DNA of 64,000 nucleotides. It comes from Escherichia coli. GTDB lineage: Bacteria; Pseudomonadota; Gammaproteobacteria; Enterobacterales; Enterobacteriaceae. The position numbers and the translations under genes were made by a program. Shown piece by piece: positions 3,252-42,062 of this stretch; positions within the stretch are counted from its first letter, which is position 1; each line of letters starts with the position of its first letter. The stretch is taken from assembly GCF_024502345.1 (NCBI RefSeq), contig NZ_JALDNN010000001.1. One strand, given 5' to 3'. The notes beneath the pieces are model-generated. The model saw nothing but the letters and a program-made list of their open reading frames with translations. It did no database searches and was not told where the DNA came from.

Positions 3252-3535
3252 GCAATTTCTTCGCCAATAATAATCGCGCAGAGTTTAATAAAAGCGCAGC
3301 TAACGAGAAAGCGAATTTTGTAGCTGAAACCGCGGTTAAGCACATTCTTACATTATTGCGAGTATAGCTACGCTTTCTTTAAGTTTTATTTAACCTATGC
3401 CCGTTACAATCACCCACCGTAAACAGGCCGCTTGAGGGAAATAAGACGATGCCGCTTTACCCAGTTTAACCTGCACTTTATTCTCAACGACTTGCCTGTA
3501 TTGGCTCCCTTTTAATCACTTTGCGTCGGGAAGTT

Positions 3536-39395: not shown

Positions 39396-39434
39396 ATCCA
39401 TCGCTGATGGTGCAGAACTTTAGTACCCGATAAA

Positions 39435-39467
39435 AGCGGCTTCCTGACAGGAGGCCGTTTTGTTTTG
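39435..39467 (+). terminator. rho-independent terminator of dps
   Basis: cggcttcct...aggaggccg hairpin then ttttgtttt. Confidence 0.65.
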
Positions 39468-39610
39468 CAGCCCACCGCAACGCACTTATTTAGTGCATCC
39501 ATCTGCTATCTCCAGCTGATTAAGTAAATTTTTTGTATCCACATCATCACACAATCGTTACATAAAGATTGTTTTTTCATCAGGTTTTACGCTAAATAAT
39601 CACTGTGTTG

Positions 39611-39656
39611 AGTGCACAATTTTAGCGCACCAGATTGGTGCCCCAGAATGGTGCAT
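39611..39656. promoter_or_regulatory. NtrC (NRI) binding-site cluster upstream of glnH
   Basis: overlapping near-palindromes tgcac...gcgcaccagattggtgc...cagaatggtgca resembling TGCACC-N5-GGTGCA. Confidence 0.55.
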
Positions 39657-39728
39657 CTTCAGGGTATTGCCCTATAAATCGTGCATCACGTTTTTGCCGC
39701 ATCTCGAAAAATCAAGGAGTTGCAAAAC

Positions 39729-39744
39729 TGGCGCGATTTTTTCA
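39729..39744 (+). promoter_or_regulatory. sigma-54-type promoter (glnHp2-like), -24/-12 elements
   Basis: TGGCGCGATTTTTTCA matches TGGCAC-N5-TTGCA with GG conserved and a weak -12 (TC); 55 nt upstream of glnH ATG. Confidence 0.5.
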
Positions 39745-39783
39745 TATATGTGAATGTCACGCAGGGGATCGTCCCGTGGATAG

Positions 39784-40545
<762 letters not shown>

Positions 40546-40574
40546 TAACGCTACACCTGTAAAACGCACTGGCA

Positions 40575-40640
40575 GTTCCCTCTCCCCTATGGGGAGAGGA
40601 TTAGGGTGAGGGGCGCAAACCCGCTCCGGGGCCATTAATT
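40575..40640. repeat. GC-rich boxC-like intergenic repeat between glnH and glnP
   Basis: ccctctcccctatggggagagg hairpin followed by attagggtgaggggcgcaaacccgctccggggcc; resembles the E. coli boxC family as I recall it. Confidence 0.5.
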
Positions 40641-40683
40641 ACCCTGAATTTGATTATTTACACCACGGTAACAGGAACAACAT

Positions 40684-41343
40684 ATGCAGTTTGACTGGAG
40701 TGCCATCTGGCCTGCCATTCCGCTTCTGATTGAAGGTGCCAAAATGACCCTGTGGATTTCGGTCCTCGGTCTGGCAGGCGGTCTGGTAATCGGATTGCTG
40801 GCAGGTTTTGCACGCACCTTCGGAGGTTGGATAGCCAACCACGTCGCGCTGGTCTTTATTGAAGTGATCCGCGGCACACCTATCGTCGTCCAGGTGATGT
40901 TTATTTATTTCGCCCTGCCGATGGCGTTTAACGACTTACGCATCGACCCATTTACTGCGGCGGTGGTCACCATCATGATCAACTCCGGCGCGTATATTGC
41001 GGAAATCACGCGTGGTGCGGTGCTGTCTATTCACAAAGGTTTTCGTGAAGCAGGACTGGCGCTCGGTCTTTCACGTTGGGAAACCATTCGCTACGTCATT
41101 TTACCGCTGGCACTGCGTCGTATGCTGCCGCCGCTGGGTAACCAGTGGATCATCAGCATTAAAGACACCTCGCTGTTTATTGTGATCGGCGTGGCGGAAC
41201 TGACCCGTCAGGGGCAAGAAATTATTGCCGGTAACTTCCGCGCCCTTGAGATCTGGAGCGCCGTGGCGGTGCTCTATCTGATTATTACCCTGGTGCTGAG
41301 CTTTATTCTGCGTCGTCTGGAAAGAAGGATGAAAATCCTGTGA
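40684..41343 (+). CDS. glnP: glutamine ABC transporter permease GlnP
   Basis: 219-aa ORF. Confidence 0.93.
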
Positions 41344-42062
41344 TTGAATTTAAAAACGTCTCCAAGCACTTTGGCCCAACCCAGGTGCTGCACAATATCG
41401 ATTTGAACATTGCCCAGGGCGAAGTCGTGGTGATTATCGGGCCGTCCGGTTCCGGTAAATCGACCCTGCTGCGCTGCATCAACAAACTGGAAGAAATCAC
41501 CTCCGGCGATCTGATTGTCGATGGCCTGAAGGTTAACGATCCGAAAGTTGACGAGCGCCTGATTCGCCAGGAAGCAGGTATGGTGTTCCAGCAGTTTTAC
41601 CTCTTCCCGCATCTGACGGCGCTGGAAAACGTCATGTTTGGTCCGCTACGCGTGCGTGGCGCGAACAAAGAAGAGGCGGAAAAACTGGCGCGTGAGCTGC
41701 TGGCGAAAGTCGGTCTGGCAGAACGTGCACATCACTACCCTTCCGAACTTTCTGGTGGTCAACAGCAGCGTGTGGCGATTGCCCGCGCGCTGGCGGTGAA
41801 GCCGAAAATGATGCTGTTTGATGAACCGACTTCCGCTCTTGACCCGGAACTGCGCCATGAAGTGCTGAAGGTTATGCAGGATCTGGCTGAAGAAGGGATG
41901 ACGATGGTGATCGTGACCCACGAAATCGGTTTTGCCGAGAAAGTAGCTTCGCGGCTGATCTTTATCGACAAAGGCCGGATTGCGGAAGATGGCGATCCGC
42001 AGGTATTGATCAAGAACCCGCCGAGCCAGCGCTTGCAGGAATTTTTGCAGCACGTCTCTTAA
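41340..42062 (+). CDS. glnQ: glutamine ABC transporter ATP-binding protein GlnQ
   Basis: 240-aa ORF, GTG start overlapping glnP stop; Walker [10 protein letters not shown]. Confidence 0.92.

What the first reader, a model, noticed from the sequence alone, without database searches (positions are those of the whole stretch)
40575..40640. GC-rich boxC-like structured repeat inside the glnH-glnP intergenic region
A perfect hairpin (ccctctcccc-tatg-gggagagg) followed by gggtgaggggcgcaaacccgctccggggcc sits between the binding-protein gene and the permease genes of one operon. This placement is typical of intra-operon elements that attenuate read-through or stabilise upstream mRNA, giving binding protein in excess over membrane components. 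It resembles the boxC repeat family as I recall it.
Basis: partly seen in the sequence, partly recalled or inferred. Interest (0 to 1): 0.3.

Follow-up and report, generated by a model that had tools for sequence, protein, structure and literature searches.

The report
BoxC repeat hairpin ending glnH mRNA
The GC-rich structure between glnH and glnP is a slightly degenerate copy of the known E. coli BoxC repeat, and published RNA 3'-end maps place an abundant transcript end four bases after its hairpin, so it most likely protects the binding-protein message from decay rather than acting as a classical terminator.

Summary
The window is the E. coli dps-glnHPQ-ybiO region. At 40579-40599 there is a perfect 9-bp hairpin, followed by GGGTGAGGGG.

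A covariance model built from 12 other K-12 copies hits 40558-40641 at 54.9 bits (E about 8e-14). The sequence recurs about 13 times per E. coli genome. It has one mismatch to the strict published TMECO consensus and is missing from that paper's list of 23 K-12 copies.

About 5400 of 5426 complete E. coli genomes keep the copy. E. marmotae, an E. albertii-like genome, Salmonella, Citrobacter, Klebsiella, Enterobacter and Kluyvera types lack it. Each carries a different GC-rich stem-loop in the same slot: REP-like elements or a plain terminator-like hairpin. The slot lies upstream of a conserved U-rich tract and the validated GlnZ sRNA site.

Published Term-seq lists an RNA 3' end at K-12 847200, which is window 40603, four nt after the hairpin, in all three conditions.

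Best reading: a hairpin barrier to 3' exonucleases that stabilises glnH mRNA. It works like REP in malEFG and is not an intrinsic terminator. This is a known kind of element with a modest new functional link.

The parts
39799..40545 (+). glnH, periplasmic glutamine-binding protein gene (upstream cistron)
   Evidence: ORF; identical to the annotated K-12 glnH context
40558..40641 (+). Full BoxC repeat copy: left arm, 36-nt core and right arm
   Evidence: Model R1, built from 12 other K-12 copies, matches its full length at 54.9 bits, E 8e-14; alignment
40578..40613 (+). BoxC/TMECO type-A core CCCTCTCCCCTATGGGGAGAGGATTAGGGTGAGGGG. It has one mismatch (GGA instead of GGG at 40598-40600) to the strict consensus
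   Evidence: Compared with the consensus and Table 1 of PMC4666352
40579..40599 (+). SL1: perfect 9-bp GC-rich hairpin with loop UAU
   Evidence: dG -18.3 kcal/mol, pair probability 0.7-1.0. Stems invariant in 6 divergent E. coli alleles; only the loop varies
40603..40603 (+). Mapped RNA 3' end (K-12 coordinate 847200, minus strand), 4 nt after SL1
   Evidence: Adams et al. 2021 Supplementary file 1: scores 30331.8, 130459 and 42295.2 in LB OD 0.4, LB OD 2.0 and M63; coordinate mapping checked
40601..40647 (+). SL2 (predicted): UUAGGGUGA pairs with UUACCCUGA and encloses a small inner hairpin. The 5' half is the third BoxC block
   Evidence: dG -18.5, pair probability about 0.9. Prediction only. 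No mapped 3' end follows it (no entry at 8471xx)
40648..40659 (+). Conserved single-stranded U-rich tract AUUUGAUUAUUU, a candidate endonuclease entry site (inferred)
   Evidence: Conserved next to the GlnZ site in all 12 lineages; mean unpaired probability 0.73
40663..40672 (+). GlnZ sRNA pairing site CCACGGUAAC, just upstream of the glnP Shine-Dalgarno
   Evidence: The seed duplex is -18.4 kcal/mol here. Published repression of glnP by GlnZ. The Salmonella C-18G mutation primer lies in this motif
40673..40676 (+). glnP Shine-Dalgarno AGGA
   Evidence: Sequence; conserved in all orthologous intergenic regions
40684..42062 (+). glnP (40684-41343) and glnQ (41340-42062), the membrane and ATPase subunits (downstream cistrons)

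Best explanation
The element is a solo, slightly degenerate type-A copy of the BoxC repeat, also called PIT or TMECO. It became fixed in the glnH-glnP spacer of E. coli after the split from E. marmotae. In the glnHPQ mRNA, its Watson-Crick hairpin SL1 forms a stable 9-bp stem. The downstream part of the transcript is probably lost by endonucleolytic cleavage in the U-rich tract or in glnP, including cleavage promoted when GlnZ-Hfq blocks glnP translation. 3'-to-5' exonucleases then trim back and stall a few bases after SL1. This leaves a stable glnH-only RNA, so the binding protein can be made in excess of the membrane subunits and is shielded from GlnZ-driven loss of glnPQ. Shown: the family identity, the hairpin, an abundant in vivo 3' end at SL1+4, and a structured element in this slot in all relatives. 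Inferred: that the 3' end arises by exonuclease stalling rather than termination, that it lengthens glnH mRNA life, and the link to GlnZ.
For: Identity: the core matches the published type-A sequence, the arms align with 12 K-12 copies, the covariance-model hit has E 8e-14, and there is a median of 13 places per genome in 5425 genomes. In vivo 3' end: 847200(-), which is window 40603, appears in all three Term-seq conditions. In M63 its score (42295) is comparable to the operon-terminal end after glnQ (29295). In the LB passages read, that terminal end is not listed at all. The hairpin is stable and strictly conserved while the third block decays in O157 and B2 alleles. Twelve lineages each carry a different strong stem-loop in the same slot, with folding z-scores from -2.0 to -5.9. 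This is the same arrangement as the malE-malF model (reviewed in PMC5927463). In Salmonella a GlnZ pulse lowers glnP and glnQ more than 4-fold, but glnH is not in that list.
Against: No experiment has tested this copy. glnHPQ was among the operons analysed by Dar and Sorek but is not in their list of differentially decaying operons. Six other sense-oriented K-12 BoxC copies show no curated 3' end, so the effect is context dependent. The family as a whole shows no association with gene function or operon position (PMC4666352). Fixation in E. coli and turnover between species are also what a neutral insertion at a permissive site would produce. The whole-spacer folding z-score in E. coli is only -2.0 to -2.5.
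Confidence: 0.6

Rival explanations
1. The element is a partial transcription terminator (attenuator): RNA polymerase stops at or just after the BoxC structure, so fewer transcripts reach glnPQ.
For: There is a strong Term-seq 3' end at SL1+4. In Kluyvera-, Enterobacter-, L135- and L136-type genomes the same slot holds a textbook hairpin plus a run of five U, CAGGGGCG..CGCCCCUG CUAUUUUU. In E. coli the predicted SL2 abuts a U-rich tract.
Against: SL1 is followed by AUUAGGGUG, not a U-tract, and the terminator scan finds nothing in the spacer. No 3' end is mapped after SL2 or the U-rich tract. PIT/BoxC elements were reported to lack terminator activity and not to affect RNA polymerase. adk transcripts read through a sense BoxC. 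My search of the Rho-termination table (Supplementary file 2) for coordinates starting 8470, 8471 or 8472 found no entry at this locus.
Confidence: 0.15
2. The element is a neutral or selfish repeat with no selected role here. BoxC landed in a permissive, hairpin-rich insertion hot spot, and the RNA 3' end is an unselected by-product of any stable hairpin.
For: BoxC copies sit in all kinds of intergenic contexts and orientations with no functional pattern, including antisense copies inside the pst and yih operons. The cassette in this slot differs even among Escherichia species, as expected for a hot spot of repeat insertion. The triplex and G4 signatures of this copy are decaying.
Against: All 12 lineages examined keep a strong stem-loop followed by a U-rich tract although the sequences are unrelated. 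None of these 12 has an empty slot. SL1 stems are invariant across divergent E. coli alleles while the loop and third block vary. The copy is far more stable across strains (5400 of 5426) than typical TMECO loci, of which only 38% showed no change.
Confidence: 0.2
3. The element acts at the DNA level: an intrastrand triplex or G-quadruplex that perturbs replication or recombination, as proposed for TMECO elements.
For: The family forms triplexes in vitro and its loci are more rearranged among strains. One strain has ISEc10 inserted inside SL1 together with a rearrangement.
Against: This copy breaks the triplex register (GGA) in all E. coli alleles seen, and the third block is further mutated in O157 and B2. 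It no longer matches a three-tetrad G4 motif. The locus is intact in 5400 of 5426 genomes. Published in vivo footprinting did not detect a triplex.
Confidence: 0.05

Closest known systems
BoxC repeat of E. coli, also called PIT element (Hoyne et al. 2000) or TMECO (Holder et al. 2015, PMC4666352)
   Same: It has the same 36-nt three-block core (CCCTCNCCCC, loop, GGGGAGAGGN, TTA, GGGTGAGGGG) with the type-A TTA second loop. Left and right arms are homologous, the location is intergenic, and the sequence is multi-copy in E. coli.
   Different: There is one mismatch in block 2 (GGA), so it fails the strict TMECO pattern and is not among the 23 listed K-12 copies. The G-to-T change makes its hairpin perfect, whereas most type-A copies carry a mismatch. 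It is much more stable across strains than typical TMECO loci. It is tied to a mapped RNA 3' end, whereas no function is known for the family.
REP/BIME elements between the binding-protein and permease genes of ABC-transporter operons (malE-malF, hisJ-hisQ)
   Same: The position in the operon is the same, and it is a GC-rich stem-loop in the mRNA. The proposed action as a 3' exonuclease barrier gives more binding-protein mRNA (model summarised in PMC5927463). REP-like hairpins occupy this very slot in Salmonella, E. marmotae, Citrobacter and an Enterobacter-cluster genome.
   Different: The sequence family is unrelated: there is no GCCGGATG...CCGGCCTAC consensus. No stabilisation experiment exists for BoxC.
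Intrinsic (Rho-independent) terminator or attenuator
   Same: It is a stable GC-rich hairpin associated with an RNA 3' end. Orthologous spacers in Kluyvera- and Enterobacter-type genomes have a canonical hairpin plus U-run here.
   Different: No U-tract follows SL1, and the 3' end lies in AUUA|GGG. The family is reported to lack terminator activity.
GlnZ sRNA control of glnP (Walling et al. 2022; Miyakoshi et al. 2022)
   Same: It is in the same intergenic region. The GlnZ site (40663-40672) lies 16-22 nt downstream of the BoxC cassette.
   Different: It is a separate element. BoxC does not overlap the pairing site and is not mentioned in those studies. Any coupling, such as protection of glnH from GlnZ-triggered decay, is my inference.

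Membership tests
BoxC repeat family (by homology) | Significant similarity to other genomic copies over the core and both arms | tested here: met
   A covariance model built from 12 other K-12 copies hits 40558-40641 over its full length at 54.9 bits, E 8e-14. There is no other hit in the window or in 11 outgroup loci.
BoxC repeat family (by homology) | Dispersed, multi-copy and intergenic in E. coli | tested here: met
   blastn with the 138-nt spacer finds 66264 places in 5425 genomes, median 13 per genome. This copy is intergenic.
TMECO sensu stricto (Holder et al. 2015) | Exact match to CCCTCNCCC-N3-6-GGGNGAGGG-N3-GGGNGAGGG | tested here: not met
   Block 2 reads GGGAGAGGA, one mismatch. 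No entry near 847 kb appears in their Table 1 of 23 K-12 copies. I therefore file it as a degenerate BoxC copy, not as a strict TMECO.
TMECO / PIT | The single strand folds into an intrastrand purine-motif triplex | not testable with these tools
   This needs CD or NMR. From the sequence, the G-to-A change removes one triplet, and the O157 and B2 alleles alter block 3.
REP / BIME | REP consensus palindrome (GCCGGATG..., ...CCGGCCTAC tail) | tested here: not met
   No such sequence occurs at 40546-40683. REP-like tails (CCGGGCCTAC) do occur in the Salmonella, Citrobacter and L146 spacers.
Intrinsic terminator | GC-rich stem directly followed by a U-tract | tested here: not met
   The scan finds no + strand site in the spacer. 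SL1 is followed by AUUAGGGUG. SL2 abuts AUUUGAUUAUUU, but no 3' end is mapped there.
mRNA 3'-end protective hairpin (functional class, as in malE-malF) | A stable RNA 3' end maps a few nt downstream of the stem in vivo | tested here: met
   Published Term-seq 3' end at 847200(-), window 40603, which is SL1+4, in three conditions.
mRNA 3'-end protective hairpin (functional class, as in malE-malF) | The upstream cistron's mRNA lives longer than the downstream cistrons', and this depends on the hairpin | not testable with these tools
   No mutant data exist. glnHPQ is not in the published list of differentially decaying operons.
Any Rfam family | Score at or above the gathering threshold | tested here: not met
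   The best overlapping hits are 15-18 bits against thresholds of 37-40.

The most novel reading that the evidence does not exclude
The glnH-glnP spacer may be a selected 'hairpin slot' that different lineages fill with whatever stem-loop is available: a plain terminator-like hairpin, REP, or in E. coli BoxC. The BoxC hairpin would then be an exapted decay barrier that defines the glnH mRNA 3' end and insulates glnH from GlnZ-triggered destruction of glnPQ. That would be the first physiological role assigned to a BoxC/PIT element about 30 years after the family was described.
Probability: 0.4. Interest if true: 0.5.

Novelty: new member of a known kind. Interest (0 to 1): 0.35.

Why it matters
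BoxC/PIT/TMECO repeats have been catalogued since the 1990s, and no function has been found for them. This copy gives a concrete, testable case. A BoxC hairpin coincides with an abundant mRNA 3' end inside an ABC-transporter operon, next to a validated sRNA target. The same slot is filled by unrelated hairpins in other enterobacteria. If confirmed, it would show that BoxC can do the job known for REP elements. It would also show how sRNA control of the downstream cistrons is kept from spreading to the upstream one. If not, it remains an ordinary repeat copy.

Tried and rejected
- **Rfam:** the scan of 39400-41400 gave only sub-threshold chance hits.
- **Promoter and terminator scan:** no sigma-70 promoter and no + strand terminator in the spacer, so an internal glnP promoter or a classical terminator is not indicated.
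- **SL2 plus U-rich tract as a leaky terminator:** I considered this from the fold. I set it aside because Term-seq has no 3' end at 8471xx.
- **Genome contigs motif scan:** I fetched the K-12 copies individually instead.
- **Duplex prediction with full-length GlnZ:** this gave a meaningless 125-nt duplex. Only the 25-nt seed was informative.
- **Strain FORC_042:** its low coverage is an IS26 deletion of glnP, unrelated to BoxC.
- **Searches that found nothing:**
  - The Dar and Sorek S3 table lists glnHPQ only among the operons analysed.
  - The TERMITe supplements gave no hit.
  - No text is held for the Rend-seq annotation supplement or the 3'-UTR valve supplement.
  - Li et al. 2014 is not held.
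  - Mao et al. 2007 has no Northern data.
- **CCCT at 40642-40645:** whether it is the stump of a lost inverted type-B partner could not be settled. In the A+B pairs the 28-nt spacer has the same length and is 17/28 identical. Whether CCGGGGCC is a remnant of an older REP also could not be settled.

Full report
**Setting.** The window carries rhtA, dps, glnH (39799-40545), glnP (40684-41343), glnQ (41340-42062) and ybiO on the + strand. This is the E. coli K-12 region 843-850 kb read in reverse. For the region analysed here, K-12 coordinate = 887803 minus window coordinate (checked). The finding lies in the 138-nt glnH-glnP spacer (40546-40683).

**Observation.** CCTCTCCCC (40579-40587) and GGGGAGAGG (40591-40599) form a perfect 9-bp inverted repeat with a 3-nt loop.
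- As RNA, the first hairpin (SL1) has dG -18.3 kcal/mol. Eight of its nine pairs have probability 0.99-1.0; the outermost pair is 0.7.
- A second predicted structure (SL2, 40601-40647, dG -18.5, pair probability about 0.9) pairs UUAGGGUGA with UUACCCUGA.
- The whole spacer folds only moderately better than shuffles (z = -2.5).
- The core pattern is expected 0.02 times by chance in the window.

**What it is.** The published consensus for the E. coli BoxC/PIT/TMECO element is CCCTCNCCC-N3-6-GGGNGAGGG-N3-GGGNGAGGG (Holder et al. 2015, PMC4666352).
- The most common K-12 form ('type A mm') is CCCTCGCCCCTTTGGGGAGAGGGTTAGGGTGAGGGG.
- The glnH-glnP copy, CCCTCTCCCCTATGGGGAGAGGATTAGGGTGAGGGG, differs at three positions:
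  - a G-to-T change that removes the usual stem mismatch;
  - a change in the loop;
  - a G-to-A change that makes block 2 GGA.
- Because of the G-to-A change it fails the strict pattern. It is absent from that paper's table of 23 K-12 copies; none lies near 847 kb.
- I fetched 12 of those copies. Similarity extends into a left arm (..GCACGGACGGTC) and a right arm of about 28 nt.
- A covariance model built from those 12 copies, without this one, hits window 40558-40641 over its full length at 54.9 bits, E about 8e-14. It hits nothing else in the window or in 11 outgroup loci.
- The spacer sequence finds a median of 13 places per genome in 5425 of 5426 complete E. coli genomes.
- Rfam has nothing.

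I file this as a degenerate BoxC copy, not as a strict TMECO.

**Distribution of this copy.**
- About 5400 of 5426 E. coli genomes carry the whole glnH-spacer-glnP stretch at 95% identity or more.
- The exceptions I inspected are an IS26 deletion and an ISEc10 insertion inside SL1.
- Among six divergent alleles the SL1 stems are invariant and the loop varies (TAT, TCT, GCC).
- The third block is GGGTGAGGGG, GGGTGA-GGG (O157) or GGGTGAAGGG (B2).
- The Watson-Crick hairpin is therefore kept while the triplex and G-quadruplex signature decays. The family consensus matches a canonical four-tract G4 motif, but this copy does not.

**Relatives.** I recovered orthologous spacers through GlnH homologues.
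- E. marmotae (93% identical genes), an E. albertii-like genome (89%), Salmonella, Citrobacter sedlakii, Klebsiella-, Enterobacter- and Kluyvera-type genomes and three unnamed enterobacterial contigs all lack BoxC. The Salmonella sequence is identical to the published glnHP fusion insert.
- The right flank, U-rich tract plus CCACGGUAAC plus AGGA, is conserved in all 12, with one- or two-base variants in some lineages.
- Between the glnH stop codon and that flank, each lineage has a different strong stem-loop:
  - a textbook hairpin plus a run of five U in the Kluyvera, Enterobacter, L135 and L136 types;
  - REP-like hairpins in Salmonella, E. marmotae, Citrobacter and L146;
  - other hairpins in the Klebsiella type and in L137.
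- Folding z-scores for this part range from -2.0 (E. coli) to -5.9.
- BoxC therefore entered this slot in the E. coli lineage. The slot always holds a structured element.

**The other functional element in the spacer.** GlnZ is the sRNA from the glnA 3' UTR. It represses glnP by pairing just upstream of the Shine-Dalgarno sequence in both E. coli and Salmonella.
- The K-12 GlnZ seed pairs best with window 40663-40672 (-18.4 kcal/mol).
- The published Salmonella compensatory mutation lies in this motif.
- The site sits 16-22 nt downstream of the BoxC cassette and does not overlap it.
- After a GlnZ pulse in Salmonella, glnP and glnQ fall more than 4-fold. glnH is not in that list.

**Direct transcript evidence.** Adams et al. 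2021 (PMC7815308, Supplementary file 1) give curated Term-seq 3' ends for MG1655.

| K-12 3' end (strand) | Window position | LB OD 0.4 | LB OD 2.0 | M63 | What it is |
|---|---|---|---|---|---|
| 847200 (-) | 40603 | 30331.8 | 130459 | 42295.2 | 'orphan' end, 4 nt after SL1 |
| 848340 (-) | 39463 | 89018 | 681605 | 262901 | dps terminator, for scale |
| 845561 (-) | 42242 | not listed in passage read | not listed in passage read | 29295 | operon-terminal end after glnQ |

- The 847200 entry comes with the flanking sequence ...GGGGAGAGGATTA|GGGTGAGGGG. The position is four nt past the last SL1 pair.
- No 3' end is listed at 8471xx, which would be after SL2 or the U-rich tract.
- The adk transcript, which contains a sense-oriented BoxC, ends only at a downstream hairpin plus T-run at 497939.
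- Six other sense copies have no curated 3' end.
- Two 3' ends flank the BoxC pair in the fepB leader.

**Mechanism.** SL1 has no U-tract after it.
- BoxC/PIT elements were reported to have no promoter or terminator activity and no effect on RNA polymerase (Hoyne and Maher 2002, as summarised).
- adk mRNA reads through a BoxC.
- A 3' end a few bases past a very stable GC stem, with none at the weaker AU/GU-rich SL2, fits 3' exonucleases trimming back from a downstream break and stalling at SL1.
- This is the mechanism established for REP between malE and malF (summarised in PMC5927463).
- I therefore favour a decay-barrier role that yields a stable glnH-only RNA (confidence about 0.6).
- The origin of the downstream break is inferred. 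Candidates are RNase E in the U-rich tract, decay of untranslated glnP after GlnZ binding, or Rho-dependent polarity.

Rivals are partial termination (0.15), a neutral repeat whose 3' end is an unselected by-product (0.2), and a DNA-level triplex or G4 role (0.05).

Evidence against my reading:
- glnHPQ is not in Dar and Sorek's list of differentially decaying operons.
- The family shows no general functional pattern.
- No mutant has been made.

**Novelty and verdict.** The family, its sequence and its lack of known function are all in the literature. Hairpin stabilisers in binding-protein operons are textbook. Three points appear to be unremarked in the papers I could search:
- the strict TMECO catalogue missed this degenerate copy;
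- this copy coincides with a strong mapped 3' end;
- unrelated hairpins fill the same slot in other enterobacteria, next to the GlnZ site.

This is an ordinary kind of element with a modest, testable functional angle. Interest is 0.35.

Noticed in passing
Sources include Pseudomonas, Polaromonas, Bradyrhizobium, delta-proteobacteria, Thermodesulfobacteriota, cyanobacteria, Verrucomicrobia and Elusimicrobia. 96 of 118 have CCCTCNCCC just upstream. Pseudomonas copies even share an E. coli-like left arm (..GAACGGTC|CCCTC). Why such a motif is shared across phyla is unexplained.
   Followed up: partly
family consensus; window 40591-40613: The family consensus GGGGAGAGGGTTAGGGTGAGGGG has four G3 tracts with 3-nt loops, a canonical G-quadruplex motif that contains the telomere-like GGGTTAGGG. 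The glnH-glnP copy (GGA) matches only a two-tetrad pattern.
   Followed up: partly
L150 about 3480-3500 (E. coli strain B2.3), equivalent to window about 40586-40590: An IS21-family ISEc10 is inserted inside the 5' arm of SL1. Unrelated DNA (a DUF4942 gene) lies upstream instead of glnH, so there is an IS-associated rearrangement at the BoxC hairpin.
   Followed up: partly
L122 (E. coli FORC_042), equivalent to window about 40500-41340: IS26 replaces the 3' end of glnH, the spacer and all of glnP, so this strain lacks the permease gene.
   Followed up: yes
window 39746 (K-12 848057, minus strand): A curated Term-seq 3' end lies 53 nt upstream of the glnH start codon, inside the glnH leader (LB OD 2.0 list). 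It may be a leader attenuation or processing product.
   Followed up: no
window 42242 (K-12 845561, minus strand): The operon-terminal 3' end after glnQ maps to a hairpin CCTCCCTTTCACCCGAAAGGGAGG with no T-run. It is listed in M63 but not in the LB passages I read.
   Followed up: no
L133 (K-12 fepB-entC, 624567 and 624680, minus strand): Term-seq 3' ends flank the inverted A+B BoxC pair in the fepB leader. One is just 5' of the type-B copy and one is 12 nt 3' of the type-A hairpin.
   Followed up: partly
L129 (pstA-pstB) and L130 (yihS-yihR): Two other K-12 BoxC copies lie inside operons, but in the antisense orientation relative to the mRNA (C-rich strand transcribed).
   Followed up: no
window 40556-40575 compared with L151, L152, L154: The left arm is polymorphic in E. 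coli. B2 and Ecol_316 alleles have GCGCC-TGTAA(A/G)-GCGC, which can form a small extra hairpin that K-12 (ACACC...AACGC) cannot.
   Followed up: no
window 40135-40635, minus strand: A 166-aa antisense ORF starts inside the BoxC element (MAPERVCAPHPNPLPIGERE...) and runs antisense through glnH. It is almost certainly spurious and is the kind of ORF that BoxC repeats generate.
   Followed up: no
window 39433-39468: The weak Rfam ctRNA_p42d hit (26.9 bits, below threshold) coincides with the dps terminator hairpin, whose Term-seq 3' end is 848340, window 39463.
   Followed up: partly
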